Assembly (NCBI GenBank): GCA_012295275.1
Contig: CM022669.1
Coordinates: 4,030,001-4,094,000 of the forward strand
DNA length: 64,000 nucleotides
Source: Chrysomallon squamiferum
Lineage: Eukaryota; Animalia; Mollusca
Reading direction: 5' to 3'
Shown here: positions 22,870 through 37,684 of the stretch, piece after piece
How positions within the stretch are numbered: the first letter of the stretch is position 1
How the letters are laid out: every line of letters begins with the position of its first letter
Position numbers and translations under genes: made by a program
Notes under the pieces: generated by a model
What the model was told of the DNA's origin: nothing
Database searches by the model: none
What the model saw: the letters and a program-made list of their open reading frames with translations, nothing else

Positions 22870-22945
22870 ATGACTCAGTCTGTCATAGCTTTGTGCGTTT
22901 TCTCTGCTCTTTTATCAGTCATAAGGTGTCAGGTAGCTCTTCGTG
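22870..22945 (+). other. Signal-peptide exon of the collagen gene
   Basis: [25 protein letters not shown] has a hydrophobic core and a small residue at the likely cleavage site. It is preceded by a tttcag acceptor and followed by a strong gtaag donor, phase 1, matching the next exon. Confidence 0.75.
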
Positions 22946-23660
22946 GTAAGCAATTGCACTTTCATTTTAATGAAATTTCATATTTCATTTTAATCAAATC
23001 GTACTTCTGTACTGACACCCCTATATAATTAATATTAATGTGCTATAAGGATTAATGGTAATAATGATCATTATGATAGTAATAGTAATAATAGTACTGA
23101 TATTAGTATTAATAGTAATACTAGTCATTAGTTTTCCCAGTAATAGTAGTTACATTATTAGTAATAATATAATATTCTATTAAATGATATGAACAAATTA
23201 ATCTTTAATACTAATATATATAGTATTTGATATACGACAAAGATGGTTCATACGTTTACGTTCACAGCTGTTAGTTCTGAATAAGTTAAGCATTCTAATC
23301 GTCATTGTAATAATTGAAATCATATATTTTTGTTCTCTCGTTACGTCCTCAGACTGGAGCTTCTTGTACGAGATCGATGGTCTGAGCGGACTCGCGCGCT
23401 GTGGGTTTCCCTCGGACACGAAAGGTGAAGACTACTACAAGGAAGGTGGGAACACGATATGGATTAACCACGAGTTTCCTCTGCTCACTGGACATCTAGT
23501 TCAAGTCCAGTACTACATCCACACCAACACTGACACCAACTACACCGGCATGATATACATATTCGAAAAACTAGAGGGAACACTACATCGGCTTCAGTTC
23601 CAGCAAAATATAACTTTCAATCGCAATCAAGGAGTGCATCTGGTAACTTTTTTTTGTTTT

Positions 23661-23711
<51 letters not shown>

Positions 23712-33600: not shown

Positions 33601-36600
33601 TTTTTAAAATATTTATGTACAGTGCTATTTTCCATAGTATAATTATTTCTGATACAGTAGACATTTTTATAACTTTCTCACTATGAAGTCTTTAATCATC
33701 CAGTAATAATGTACAGATATATTCATACTGTTTTATATATGTCAATTCATCTGATGATTTTTTATTAATTACAAATGTTTTGTAATACTTACATAGGTCC
33801 AGCTGGGTTAAGCGGTCTGGATGGTCCAGCAGGGTTAACAGGCACTACAGGACTTCAAGGTGTAGCTGGAAGAATAGGCCCACATGGACAAACAGGCGTG
33901 TCAGGAGCTACTGGAATAACTGGTATTACAGGCGCCAAGGGAGAGAAAGGAAATGTCGGCAGTCCTGGTGTTAAAGGTTCTGTAGGAGCCGCTGGAATTA
34001 CTGGCATGACCGGTACAACAGGACAAGCCGGTTCTCTTGGTTTACCAGGGTTGACCGGAATGTCTGGCATGACTGGTCCTAGAGGATTTAAAGGAGACAG
34101 GGGCTTAAGTGGTCTTTCAGGTTTGGTTGGTTTAACTGGAGCGACTGGAATTCAAGGAAACGATGGTGCGGCTGGAATAACTGGGTTCACTGGATTTACT
34201 GGAGTCGGTTTACATGGAATGACGGGCCTTTCTGGCATTCCTGGTAGACCTGGACACACTGGAATGACGGGCCCAACCGGACCAGTTGGAAGGATAGGTG
34301 CACAAGGAATAGCAGGTTAATTTTCCTGTTTGTTAACTAGGAATCCGAAGAACCGATGATCTGAATCGACAATTTAATTCATTAAAGTAAATAAAATGAA
34401 ATATTTGTATTTTCATGATAAGATAAGGCTTCAATTTAAGACAAATATTACTATTTGATACAAAATGATATTTGATCATTATTTACAAATTACGACCAGT
34501 AATGCATTCCAGTATTATTTTTTTTTATTACAGGTTTAACTGGAGTTAGTGGACTCCCAGGCTTGCCAGGCGTTACTGGTCCACAAGGCTTTCGCGGTGC
34601 CCATGGATTTGCTGGCCTTCCTGGTCTGACTGGACAAACTGGACCCAGAGGGAATCCTGGTTTGGCTGGTCTACCTGGTCTTGCTGGTGCCCAAGGCTTA
34701 AGTGGAAGAGATGGGGCCAACGGGATGACTGGAATGTCCGGTGTTCCTGGGCCATCAGGTGACTGTGATTAAACTCTAAAATAGTTTCTGGAAAATTAAA
34801 TTAACTTGCTGATAAACTGGATATTCAAAATTTAAAAGACAAATTCCGTTGCATTGATTGAAAGGTATTTAGTGTTATTAAAATTCCTGGCTATAGGAAA
34901 ATGCAGTTTGCTGTTAATCTGTTAGAATAATTTTAAAGTATCAGCACCAGCTGTCCTAGTAGTCAATAAACCATTAAGAAATTAACACATAACAATGTTA
35001 ATTTCAAAACGTATTCTATTCATTACAGGCTTACATGGTGCTGAGGGTATAACAGGAGTAAGTGGGGCTACCGGATCTCCAGGATTAATTGGAATAACTG
35101 GAATGACCGGACAGCGCGGTCCAGCTGGTCAGAAAGGTGGACAAGGTGTCACTGGAATCGCTGGTCAGCTAGGTCCACAAGGTTTCCAAGGTATCACTGG
35201 ACACACGGGTGCTGCTGGTCCTCGAGGACTGCAAGGTCTAGCAGGTAAACATTAAATGAAAATGAATATAATTATAGACTTTATATCGATCTGTACAATA
35301 ACTGAAAAGGAACTATAAATTCCCATCTATATATATATATATCTGTGAAGCTGAATTTAATTTTCTATTTCTTTAAAGCAGCTTTCAGCTATACAGTGAC
35401 ATACAAGATAGATAAGAAACCGAAGTTGTCACATTTCCTGCCTCTGTAATGACTGAATCCACCAGTGTATACAACATGCATACTTGTTCTCTTGATGTCT
35501 ATCTAGGAGAATAGGTCAACAGCAATAATATTTTTAAATGAACTTTTCAGGTCCAGAAGGCCATACTGGTCTGCCTGGCCCGGCTGGCCCAAAAGGAGAA
35601 CGTTCTGGTAAGTACTGTCATGCAGAGAAGTTGTAACTGTAATGATTTGATGATTTTTCTTCTAATTTGGAAACAAAAGATAATGATAAAATACTGGCCA
35701 ACATTACTTGTTTTGGTCATCTGACTTGCTACCATTTTTATGATTGATTTATAAAAAAAAATTTCAAAGATTTTACTTCGTAAGTTTTGTTTTAGTCCAG
35801 TTTACAAAATAGTTTAAGGAAACACAAGTTTGTAACCAGAACTCATTCTTAATTAACAGATCTCGTGTTCTGCAATGCCAGCAATGCCACACCTTGCGAT
35901 CACTACTGTGTTGATATCTGGACTGGACATGAATGTAGATGTTACGAAGGTTATCGACTAGCAAACGACTCTAAAACGTGCATAGGTTGGTACACGTCTT
36001 TAATAAGGATTAAACATTACGCAAAACATGTTATTTTGGCACCAAGCAAAGTTTCTTCCCTTGATTACTGTGAACTTAATTCAGTCACTGATACTCGATT
36101 TTGTTTTGTCGATTATTTCATAACCTTAACTTTGAGAGTGATTATTTTCTGAATATCATATCTCAAATGAGGAGACCAAGGAGGCATCCATATTGGGCTG
36201 CGCTTATGGCATCATTTGACCTTCATCCAGACTCGATTCTGTTCATTATACGAAATGGCAAGAGATATTGAATAAATTAAATAAATGTACAATATGATAC
36301 AATATAAATCTACAAATTTGATGGTTAACAAGTTTAGAGAATTTGTGTATGTAACAGATAATACAAGAACTGCCTTAAACATACTGACGTTGATTTTTTT
36401 GTTCATTTAGATATCGACGAATGTGACGCCATTGGACCATGTGAACAACTCTGCAACAACACCATCGGCGGATTTATATGCAGCTGTCGTGCAGGATATG
36501 AACTCCACGAAAACGAAAGAAATTGTGAAGGCAAGTGAGAATTGGGAGCCAGTTCTCATTATCTGTCAGAACGTAATAAGAAAGTTGATGTTTGAAATGA

Positions 36601-37684
36601 GACATAGTGCCAGAATTATCTAATAATGCCAACGCATTAATATTCACTAAATCATCTTTAAACATTTGGAGAACATTTCTTGACTGCATTTCTAAGTTTG
36701 GCTTCATTTCACAATGTTTACCTTTTATTTTATTTATTTTTTTAACCACAGATATAGACGAATGCCACTGTGAATGTGAAGCAAAGAATCCGTGTCAAAA
36801 CGTGAGAGGTTTTATGGGAATTCCTGCCTGCGTCAACACCATTGGTTCCTACAGCTGTGTCGGCGTCAGATACTCGCTCGGCAGCGCTCACTTTGGTAAG
36901 CAAAACGTGTTCAACATTTGTTTTCTCATTGGAAAATGTTTAACTGTACAGTACTTGAATAATAATCCAAAATGAAAATGAGTTTTGTTAATTTAGGAAC
37001 GAGAAGATAAGTGATTATTCAATTTAAACATTTTTAACTTGGCTTACCTCAGAGTATTCTTTTACGACACTGACATGCTATAAAAACACAAGCTCTTGTA
37101 AGTAGCATTTATGGAAATGAATTAAAGTCCATCTACCATTGCAGATGCAGGTATACGCTCTCGGAATTATTTAACGTGACAAAAACAGTTGAAAACAGTA
37201 AATTGTAAGCCACTATCAATAAATGATAAATACTTTTTTTTAAAGAGAAAATAAAGGAAAATGGCTCTTGCATATCGTTCTAACTGGTTTTACATTTCAT
37301 GTATCTGTATCTGGAACCGGTAACCTTCGTCTTTTCACGTTTAGCTCATTTCATTTGTGTTTAGATGAAGCAAATATGGATTCCATTCAGGAAGATGGTT
37401 TTTATCAGAACAACGACGCCAGCAGTGCCGAAAACACGTCACAAGCAACCGCAGCTACGGTACTGTCTCCAGAAATATCGACAATTCTGCTCGGCATCAT
37501 GTTGGGCTGTGTTTTACTCATCGCCATTGCTCTGATTATCATCGCAGTGAGATCTCGCAGAAAGAAGCAAAAGCGTGTTCAGACTGGCGGATTCAGTGGA
37601 GGAACGGCAAGACGAGGCAGTGCCGCTCAGACAGTGGGCGAACAGTCGTACGTGAAGACTCCATCTTCAGCCATGCAAATATAA
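22870..37684 (+). CDS. Giant Thr-rich, Pro-poor collagen with N-terminal signal peptide and globular domain, 3 EGF-like modules and a C-terminal transmembrane helix (~2100 aa)
   Basis: 28 exons in one open frame (6303 nt): 22870-22945, 23353-23642, 23957-24179; collagen exons 24719-25087, 25478-25630, 25737-25898, 26308-26415, 26591-27013, 27302-27718, 27952-28191, 28485-28655, 29119-29271, 29583-29789, 30246-30398, 30919-31026, 31450-31647, 31768-32019, 32286-32546, 32845-33285, 33406-33576, 33797-34315, 34534-34758, 35029-35244, 35551-35607; EGF exons 35860-35985, 36411-36530, 36752-36895; TM/tail exon 37365-37684. Linking the first three exons to the collagen exons rests on phase compatibility and proximity. 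Confidence 0.88.
30507..30814. repeat. Intronic minisatellite, 4 x 77 bp apparently identical copies
   Basis: Unit tgttaaaacaaatatgactaaacattttcgtccagcattttgtaacaaatgaagtcgaatattgtgatttcttggaa starts at 30507, 30584, 30661, 30738. Confidence 0.95.
32295..36253 (+). repeat. Segment duplicated at 1-3976
   Basis: See the duplicate at the window start. Confidence 0.95.
35860..36895 (+). other. Three EGF-like exons (EGF, Ca-binding EGF, atypical cbEGF) of the collagen gene
   Basis: The second module [40 protein letters not shown] fits the cbEGF consensus. The third is [37 protein letters not shown]. Confidence 0.9.
37484..37549 (+). other. Transmembrane helix of the collagen followed by a stop-transfer basic cluster
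   Basis: [22 protein letters not shown] followed by RSRRKKQKR (positive-inside rule). Confidence 0.88.

What the first reader, a model, noticed from the sequence alone, without database searches (positions are those of the whole stretch)
22870..37684. Giant collagen with type I membrane topology (signal peptide - globular head - ~1670-aa triple helix - EGFs - C-terminal TM)
Seen: a single spliced frame with an N-terminal signal peptide, 21 collagen exons totalling 5004 nt (1668 aa, only three register breaks noticed), three EGF-like modules, a C-terminal TM and a basic tail. Established: the known transmembrane collagens (XIII, XVII, XXIII, XXV, ectodysplasin, class A scavenger receptors, gliomedin) are type II, and fibrillar helices are ~1014 aa. 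No COLFI, NC1 or C1q trimerisation domain is present. Inference: a cell-anchored stalk up to ~480 nm long (at ~0.29 nm per residue) carrying a globular head, with the TM/EGF end nucleating the trimer. It could be a previously undescribed cell-surface, cuticle or attachment filament.
Basis: partly seen in the sequence, partly recalled or inferred. Interest (0 to 1): 0.88.

Follow-up and report, generated by a model that had tools for sequence, protein, structure and literature searches.

The report
Long collagen stalk with C-terminal anchor
This animal gene, partly confirmed as spliced RNA, encodes a 2,100-residue protein whose 552 collagen repeats are predicted to form a rod nearly half a micrometre long, likely held in the cell membrane by its tail end, the reverse of the membrane collagens described in the papers I could search.

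Summary
The gene model holds: 28 exons (22870-37684), 27 canonical introns, 2,100 aa. It reads signal peptide, 176-aa unnamed head, 552 Gly-X-Y triplets with three short breaks, two full EGF modules and one truncated, one transmembrane helix, basic tail. RNA contigs splice 20 of the 28 exons in five pieces, one running from collagen into the third EGF. Head-to-collagen and EGF-to-TM junctions were not seen in RNA; a Gigantopelta aegis model joins signal, head and collagen, and an upstream paralog-like tail joins truncated EGF to TM. The helix is proline-poor (5.5%) with Thr at 34% of Y positions, recalling Riftia cuticle collagen. Best reading: a type I membrane, triple-helical stalk of about 475 nm. 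Two qualifiers: collagen plus calcium-binding EGF without COLFI is already described in Lingula and oysters, and annelid collagens reach 8,859 aa. What stays undescribed in 10 literature searches is the C-terminal anchor. No second full-length example was found, and the scan had no earlier look-alike. New variant; interest 0.65.

The parts
22870..22945 (+). Exon 1: ATG, predicted signal peptide aa 1-20 (22870-22929) and first head residues
   Evidence: In-frame stop upstream at 22825, no upstream in-frame ATG; spliced to exon 2 in RNA runs X1 and X3; same Cys-Gln junction in P0001
23353..23642 (+). Exon 2: first half of the globular head
   Evidence: 69% identical to G. aegis P0001, 74% to P0002, 38% to P0004; covered by RNA; no Pfam family
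23957..24179 (+). Exon 3: second half of the head (head = aa 21-196)
   Evidence: 84% identical to P0001, 45% to P0003, 39% to P0005; not covered by the RNA contigs laid
24719..35607 (+). Exons 4-24: collagen region, 552 Gly-X-Y triplets. Exons 24719-25087, 25478-25630, 25737-25898, 26308-26415, 26591-27013, 27302-27718, 27952-28191, 28485-28655, 29119-29271, 29583-29789, 30246-30398, 30919-31026, 31450-31647, 31768-32019, 32286-32546, 32845-33285, 33406-33576, 33797-34315, 34534-34758, 35029-35244, 35551-35607
   Evidence: Pfam Collagen E 1.8e-28 for exon 21; RNA contigs span exons 9-13, 15-17, 18-21 and 21-27
35860..35985 (+). Exon 25: EGF module 1 (six Cys)
   Evidence: Pfam FXa_inhibition 38.5 bits, cut-off 33.4
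36411..36530 (+). Exon 26: calcium-binding EGF module 2 (six Cys)
   Evidence: Pfam EGF_CA 37.5 bits, cut-off 27; calcium-binding motifs present
36752..36895 (+). Exon 27: truncated calcium-binding EGF 3, with a Cys-x-Cys-x-Cys cluster and no Cys5/Cys6
   Evidence: an RNA contig runs 61 nt into this exon
37365..37684 (+). Exon 28: acidic Ser/Thr-rich stalk, transmembrane helix aa 2035-2056 (37484-37549), 44-aa basic cytoplasmic tail, stop
   Evidence: AATAAA at 37913; its junction to exon 27 was not examined in RNA
19640..20555 (+). Last two exons of a paralog-like gene (19640-19747 four-Cys truncated EGF; about 20302-20555 stalk, TM, basic tail); its 5' part is lost at the gap 19077-19276
   Evidence: Alignment score 70 against our aa 1947-2100; 500 shuffles gave 27.9 +/- 4.8, maximum 55; Pfam EGF_CA E 3e-4, below cut-off
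1..3976 (+). Near-identical copy of 32295-36253 (most of exon 18 to intron 25) that runs without a gap into the middle of a nicotinic-receptor-type exon
   Evidence: 98.8% by blastn; 7 substitutions in 2,007 exon bases and 10 in 1,945 intron bases; Pfam Neur_chan_memb E 1.9e-37 from 3981

Best explanation
This is one gene for a predicted single-pass type I membrane collagen, whose three chains likely form a rod of about 475 nm that holds a globular head away from the cell surface. Shown: the reading frame, the domain order, and splicing from collagen into the EGF exons. Inferred steps: (1) the N-terminal segment is cleaved after Cys20 and the chain stops at the helix aa 2035-2056, with the basic tail inside; (2) three chains come into register at the membrane end, through the anchored helices and the calcium-stiffened EGF neck, and zip from C to N as fibrillar collagens do, without a COLFI domain (about 0.6); (3) with only 5.5% proline and 3 Gly-Pro-Pro triplets the helix is stabilised mainly by O-glycosylated Thr/Ser at the Y position, as reported for Riftia cuticle collagen (about 0.55); (4) with no furin site the rod stays tethered unless a sheddase cuts the acidic stalk; (5) it serves as a spacer or tether in the apical surface coat of an epithelium, the head binding a matrix, glycan or microbial partner (about 0.4).
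For: Clean 28-exon frame; introns are only 106-539 nt and AT-rich, leaving no room for a gene end plus a new signal-peptide exon. RNA joints listed at exons 1-2, 9-10, 10-11, 22-23, 23-24 and pieces across 20-21; contig lengths fit exons 9-13, 15-17, 18-21 and 21-27, the last to the base. P0001 joins signal, head (132 of 176 identical) and collagen in one annotated protein, with the same composition: Thr at 37% of Y, hydrophobic residues at 52% of X, against 34% and 50% here. The upstream tail repeats truncated EGF, stalk, TM, basic tail. Thr sits at Y 188 times and at X 5 times; Thr or Ser fills 266 of 552 Y positions. No RxxR in the ectodomain. Riftia mechanism as cited in PMC11766948 and PMC6953826 passages.
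Against: Exon 3-4 and exon 27-28 junctions are not shown by RNA, nor are exons 4-9 joined; no contig spans the gene, and the RNA runs come from one study. No second full-length protein with this layout was found: exon 28 gave 0 hits among 343 candidates, and 0 of 120 listed collagen hits had an EGF motif or C-terminal TM-like segment; those searches covered only proteins up to 2,000 aa. P0001 ends at 305 aa and its collagen does not align in register (10 of 54 non-Gly positions; background 7.9 +/- 2.6), so it may be a paralog. EGF3's six Cys can all pair within one chain, and the upstream tail lacks the two extra ones. Glycosylation, trimer state and tissue are untested.
Confidence: 0.62

Rival explanations
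1. The working form is a released matrix collagen of the Lingula EGF-collagen kind: the anchor is only a folding or delivery aid, removed by shedding or skipped by polyadenylation in intron 27, and the rods pack into cuticle, periostracum or sclerite matrix.
For: Lingula shell collagens have a signal peptide, collagen, EGF, no COLFI, about 30% Gly and pI 9.4-11.3 (PMC4595640 supplement rows); this protein has 28.7% Gly and pI 9.4. Half of the X positions are hydrophobic, which would favour side-by-side packing. Read-through of exon 27 gives an open frame to a stop, and intron 27 holds two AATAAA. Described transmembrane collagens are commonly shed.
Against: No furin site in the ectodomain. Exon 27 has a good donor, and exon 28 a good acceptor, an in-frame TM and its own AATAAA. 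AATAAA occurs in 10 of 27 of these AT-rich introns, so it says little. No repeat period stood out in the helix.
Confidence: 0.22
2. The chains trimerise at the N-terminal head, as the globular head of streptococcal Scl proteins does (recalled), and the helix folds from N to C or as a heterotrimer with the neighbouring paralog.
For: The head is far better conserved than the helix (75% against background). A look-alike fold occurs in a viral cluster where 90% of members carry collagen (TM 0.67 by query, features 0.87; lead only). A paralog-like gene end lies 2.3 kb upstream.
Against: Atlas clusters most like the head are 173-206 aa proteins with no common Pfam family, so the domain need not go with collagen. 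No coiled-coil-like heptad run stood out in a crude scan.
Confidence: 0.2
3. The head, collagen and TM exons belong to separate genes, or the locus is an assembly patchwork.
For: The window holds a near-identical partial copy fused into a receptor exon and a 200-N gap, so the assembly is not clean. Two junctions lack RNA support.
Against: Short introns, one phase throughout, no spare start or signal exon. DNA-type contigs of run X5 bridge several exon-intron stretches of the main copy, and RNA of X1 and X2 matches the main copy at the sites that tell the two copies apart. The collagen exons are not recent copies of each other (best internal match 20 of 54).
Confidence: 0.07
4. The Gly-X-Y region is not a triple helix but a glycosylated, mucin-like extended chain or a bundle of polyproline-II helices.
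For: Low proline (5.5%), high Thr plus Ser (19.6%), up to 18 triplets with no Pro.
Against: 294 unbroken triplets, bulky residues at both X and Y, and exon lengths that keep the triplet register mean selection on every third Gly, which is what a triple helix needs (established knowledge).
Confidence: 0.05

Closest known systems
Lingula anatina EGF-domain shell collagens (Luo et al. 2015, PMC4595640; passages and supplement passages read)
   Same: Signal peptide, collagen, EGF_CA / FXa_inhibition / cEGF modules, no COLFI; about 30% Gly, basic pI. The paper counts 22 Lingula and 7 pearl-oyster proteins with collagen plus EGF_CA.
   Different: The four shell proteins are 774-1,548 aa, against 2,100 here. 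The paper reports no transmembrane segment for them (0 uses of the word in the main text; none of 5 in the supplement concerns them) and no such head. Figure 6b with domain order could not be seen. Kinship was not tested.
MACIT collagens XIII, XXIII, XXV, COL-99; collagen XVII; ectodysplasin A, colmedins, class A scavenger receptors (PMC4678570, PMC7848082; passages read)
   Same: Single-pass membrane proteins with an extracellular collagen region.
   Different: All are described as type II, anchored at the N-terminus, MACITs with coiled-coil trimerisation and furin shedding. This one has the anchor at the C-terminus, no furin site and a much less interrupted helix.
Annelid cuticle collagens, notably Riftia pachyptila (as cited in PMC11766948 and PMC6953826 passages; PMC12403961 section 12; the primary papers were not read)
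   Same: Very long helix with a globular domain; stability in Riftia ascribed to glycosylated Thr rather than hydroxyproline.
   Different: The longest annelid chains are four times longer and proline-rich in alvinellids; no membrane anchor or EGF is mentioned in what I read; no sequence kinship was shown.
Microbial surface collagen-like proteins: streptococcal Scl1/Scl2, Bacillus BclA/BclB, Metarhizium MCL1 (recalled, no call)
   Same: Scl and MCL1 have the same orientation (distal N-terminal head, collagen stalk, C-terminal anchor); Bcl proteins have Thr-rich Y positions. The top collagen hits here are similarly Thr-rich (median 44% of Y).
   Different: Non-animal, no EGF, much shorter unbroken runs (at most 196 triplets among the 120 hits); the likeness is in composition only. 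This gene has 27 spliceosomal introns.
Gigantopelta aegis LOC121377063 (XP_041360859.1), uncharacterised
   Same: Signal peptide, head 75% identical, then Thr-rich, Pro-poor collagen.
   Different: Annotated at 305 aa, losing the Gly-X-Y register after 27 triplets; no EGF or TM in the record; collagen not alignable in register.

Membership tests
MACIT / described transmembrane collagens | Type II topology: short N-terminal cytoplasmic part, then TM | tested here: not met
   Strong TM at aa 2035-2056 followed by a basic cluster; the N-terminal hydrophobic stretch is 14 residues with no basic flank. SignalP not run.
MACIT / described transmembrane collagens | Furin site next to the TM on the outer side | tested here: not met
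   No RxxR in aa 1-2031
MACIT / described transmembrane collagens | Coiled-coil trimerisation segment | tested here: inconclusive
   Crude heptad scan found nothing convincing; MARCOIL not available
Fibrillar collagens | C-terminal COLFI domain | tested here: not met
   Pfam on exons 25-28 gives EGF families and TM-like noise only
Fibrillar collagens | One unbroken helix of about 338 triplets on 54-nt-based phase-0 exons (recalled) | tested here: not met
   Four blocks, longest 294 triplets; exons 57-519 nt, phase 1
Lingula-type EGF collagens | Signal peptide, collagen and EGF_CA/FXa_inhibition modules, no COLFI | tested here: met
   against the description in PMC4595640
Lingula-type EGF collagens | Groups with them in a collagen tree / shares EGF-region ancestry | not tested
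   No Lingula sequence was returned by any search
Lingula-type EGF collagens | Secreted into a mineralised matrix | not testable with these tools
   Needs proteomics; a predicted TM argues for tethering at least at first
Riftia-type cuticle collagen | Low imino acid content with Thr dominating the Y position | tested here: met
   Pro 5.5%; Thr at 188 of 552 Y and 5 of 552 X
Riftia-type cuticle collagen | Thr is O-glycosylated and stabilises the helix | not testable with these tools
   Needs mass spectrometry and melting curves
DUF4082 / PHR / Lectin_like domains (for the head) | Profile or confident structural match | tested here: inconclusive
   No Pfam or PHROG match; Atlas feature scores 0.83-0.86, leads only; own models too poor to compare

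The most novel reading that the evidence does not exclude
The founding member of a gastropod family of type I membrane collagens: half-micrometre, sugar-stabilised rods that nucleate at a membrane-anchored EGF neck with no dedicated trimerisation domain, and carry an undescribed binding head at the tip to tether or select partners, such as surface microbes or cuticle, at a fixed distance from the epithelium. It would be an animal counterpart of bacterial Scl fibres and a second, independent use of glycosylated Thr in place of hydroxyproline.
Probability: 0.3. Interest if true: 0.85.

Novelty: new variant of a known kind. Interest (0 to 1): 0.65.

Why it matters
Reviews describe animal membrane collagens as type II, trimerised next to an N-terminal anchor. 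A type I collagen with a near-fibrillar-length unbroken block and no COLFI, NC1, C1q or coiled-coil poses a direct question: can a membrane anchor plus EGF modules set the chain register? It also offers a sequence-defined test of Thr glycosylation as a substitute for hydroxyproline in an animal collagen outside annelids, and an unnamed 176-aa head with look-alikes in sponge and annelid clusters.

Tried and rejected
No genome is held for this window, so paralogs outside it could not be counted. Two AlphaFold2 models of the head were poor (mean pLDDT 34.7 and 35.8); Foldseek against PDB gave 0 matches at E 0.001; the wide structural search did not complete. Profile search of PDB sequences: 4 matches at E 0.07-0.8, all chance level. 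Pfam and PHROGs on the head alignment: nothing under E 0.069. A three-copy prediction of the head gave no answer, score 0.00. Two metagenome scans found no relative (58 and 107 pattern matches, none confirmed). No triplet periodicity: the highest z over lags 1-24 was 2.6, and the only clear signal was avoidance of the same Y residue at lags 2-3. Thr/Ser at Y is not spread more evenly than chance. Run X5 has low depth in 7 of 9 bins over the duplicated segment against 18.5 or more in all 21 bins upstream; the tool warns that such a hole proves nothing, so I draw nothing from it. Supplement of PMC11871041 (3 files searched as text, one cut when stored, one scan unreadable): no mention of LOC121377063 and, in the first 12 places per term seen, no collagen row that I could tie to this gene. 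In one search the upstream tail and the P0001 register were mis-set by one base and one residue; the corrected values are those. Literature searches for the architecture and for the Riftia mechanism found no description of a signal-collagen-EGF-TM protein; the library lacks most subscription papers, and figures are not held.
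Full report
Observation. I rebuilt the gene from the raw sequence. It has 28 exons from 22870 to 37684, 6,303 nt, and reads as one frame of 2,100 aa. All 27 acceptors are AG, 24 donors are GT and 3 are GC, and 26 of 27 introns are phase 1. 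Exons 4-24 total 5,004 nt; 17 of the 21 are multiples of 9 nt, and the exceptions are the three with a register break and the last. The Gly-X-Y region (aa 200-1863) holds 552 triplets in blocks of 151, 41, 294 and 66, with breaks of 4, 2 and 2 residues. Before it lie a 20-residue hydrophobic leader and a 176-aa head; after it, two complete EGF modules (Pfam FXa_inhibition 38.5 bits; EGF_CA 37.5 bits), a third that lacks Cys5 and Cys6 but has two extra Cys, an acidic stalk, a 22-residue hydrophobic helix and a 44-aa basic tail. No COLFI, C4 or C1q domain was found. At 0.286 nm per residue (recalled) the rod is about 475 nm.

One gene or several. No whole genome is held. Five public runs hold the stretch, four on record as RNA from one study; three of those and the fifth run were laid on 22500-36700, which ends before exon 27. 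Listed joints are exons 1-2 (X1, X3), 9-10 and 10-11 (X1, X2), 22-23 (X1, X2, X3) and 23-24 (X1, X2); 11 more joints were not shown. Contig lengths fit exons 9-13, 15-17, 18-21 and 21-27; the last leaves exactly the 61 nt that one search printed as a loose end matching the start of exon 27. So collagen and all three EGF exons lie on one RNA. Exons 3-4 and 27-28 were not seen joined, and exons 4-9 were not joined. Indirect support: introns are 106-539 nt and 22-36% GC; the Gigantopelta aegis model P0001 joins leader, head and collagen; and 2.3 kb upstream lie the last two exons of a paralog-like gene with the same truncated EGF, stalk, TM and basic tail (score 70; 500 shuffles 27.9 +/- 4.8, maximum 55). 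I put one gene at about 0.9.

Relatives. Exon 2 found 1 protein among 23 candidates, P0001; its head is 132 of 176 identical. That makes a gastropod near G. aegis the likely source; I did not establish the organism. P0001 loses the triplet register after 27 triplets and ends at 305 aa. Its collagen has the same make-up but does not align in register (10 of 54; background 7.9 +/- 2.6 over 448 placements), so it is a paralog or the helix is constrained in composition only. A full HMMER scan with the P0001 head gave 4 hits in 1.84 billion proteins, all unnamed single-exon fragments. The TM exon found none among 343 candidates. A collagen exon found 1,607 hits; none of the 120 listed had an EGF motif or a C-terminal TM-like segment, and their longest unbroken run was 196 triplets. 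These three word searches were limited to 2,000 aa, so a full-length ortholog would be missed. The ESM Atlas places the head nearest unnamed eukaryotic clusters of 173-206 aa (scores 0.92-0.94, sponges and annelids commonest); Lectin_like, PHR and DUF4082 score 0.83-0.86, and a viral collagen-bearing cluster is structurally similar (TM 0.67); these are leads only.

Composition. Pro is 5.5% of the helix, with 3 Gly-Pro-Pro triplets. Thr is at Y 188 times and at X 5 times; Thr or Ser fills 266 of 552 Y positions; Ile, Leu, Val, Phe or Met fill half of the X positions; charged residues are few and net basic. Two papers cite Riftia cuticle collagen as stabilised by glycosylated Thr instead of hydroxyproline (PMC11766948 and PMC6953826, passages); I did not see the primary paper.

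Mechanism. Most likely a type I membrane protein: leader cleaved after Cys20 (Cys-Gln is kept in P0001), stop-transfer at aa 2035-2056, basic tail inside. With no known trimerisation domain, the simplest route is registration at the anchored end and C-to-N zipping (inference, about 0.6). The Cys-x-Cys-x-Cys cluster of EGF3 could lock chains, but six Cys can also pair within a chain and the upstream tail lacks the extras. Stability from O-glycosylated Thr is inferred by analogy (about 0.55). There is no furin site, so release would need another protease. The role I favour is a spacer or tether in an apical surface coat (about 0.4). Rivals: a shed or alternatively polyadenylated matrix collagen (0.22), nucleation at the head or a heterotrimer (0.2), separate genes or mis-assembly (0.07), no triple helix (0.05).

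Assembly caveat. Window 1-3976 copies 32295-36253 with 7 substitutions in 2,007 exon bases and 10 in 1,945 intron bases, then runs straight into the middle of a nicotinic-receptor-type exon. RNA pieces of X1 and X2 match the main copy at the distinguishing sites they cover; one X3 piece has a single difference I could not place. This looks like a mis-join or haplotype copy and does not touch the main model.

Comparison with what is known. Reviews describe MACITs, collagen XVII, ectodysplasin, colmedins and scavenger receptors as type II (PMC7848082, PMC4678570; passages); this protein fails that membership test. Collagen with EGF_CA and FXa_inhibition modules and no COLFI is described in Lingula, with 22 such proteins there and 7 in pearl oyster; the shell ones are 774-1,548 aa with signal peptides, and no TM is mentioned (PMC4595640, passages and supplement passages; also PMC13425148 passages). 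The domain figure could not be seen, so some of those proteins may be anchored too. Annelid collagens reach 8,859 aa (PMC12403961, section 12), so length is not the novelty. Passages of PMC11871041, PMC12383625, PMC12549020, PMC10381214, PMC7852208, PMC8878817 and PMC3748352 held no such architecture. Streptococcal Scl and fungal MCL1 share the orientation (recalled). Ten searches found no description of a signal-collagen-EGF-TM protein. Earlier notes of this scan hold no look-alike sequence; word matches were bacterial or viral Thr-rich collagen fibres, unchecked.

Verdict. A real, expressed gene. It works like a surface collagen stalk and resembles the lophotrochozoan EGF collagens, with a reversed membrane anchor that I could not find described. 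New variant of a known kind, interest 0.65; the bolder case of a new family of sugar-stabilised tethered rods has probability about 0.3 and would merit 0.85.

Noticed in passing
window 1-3976 and 3977-5385 (+): A copy of 32295-36253 (17 substitutions in 3,952 aligned bases) stops in intron 25 and continues, with no gap or splice site, in the middle of a nicotinic-acetylcholine-receptor-type exon (TM2 onward; last exon about 5216-5385). Mis-join or haplotype copy is likelier than a real fusion; RNA of X1 and X2 matches the main copy.
   Followed up: partly
window 19640-20555 (+): End of a paralog-like gene (four-Cys truncated EGF, stalk, TM, basic tail) just after the 200-N gap; whether it has collagen cannot be seen.
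   Followed up: partly
window 15156-16415 (-): Large exon of a CTC1 (CST telomere complex) gene, Pfam E 4.3e-08, with an imperfect 42-nt coding repeat at 15611-15728.
   Followed up: no
window 55305-56535 (+): Two ubiquitin-like exons (Pfam E 1.8e-07 and 2.1e-05), followed at 57867-58678 and about 60525 by exons that look like a von Willebrand A-type domain by eye but had no Pfam match at E 0.01.
   Followed up: no
window 30506-30815: Four perfect copies of a 77-nt unit inside intron 14; contig pieces of run X5 skip 231 nt (three units) here.
   Followed up: no
window 54053-54578: 21 copies of a 25-nt tandem unit, 97% matched.
   Followed up: no
window 22946-24718: The two head exons form a phase 1-1 module: skipping both would join the signal exon to the collagen in frame and restore a Gly at the first triplet; read-through of exon 3 would give a head-only secreted protein. 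Neither form was seen in RNA.
   Followed up: partly
P0126/P0004 and P0005: Distant matches to exon 2 and exon 3 break at the same exon boundary as here, and P0126 and P0005 both lie on contigs of 1,229 bases, hinting that the two-exon head is conserved in a more distant animal.
   Followed up: no
window introns 12, 13 and 26: Three of 27 introns use GC donors, more than usual for animal genes (recalled rate about 1%).
   Followed up: no
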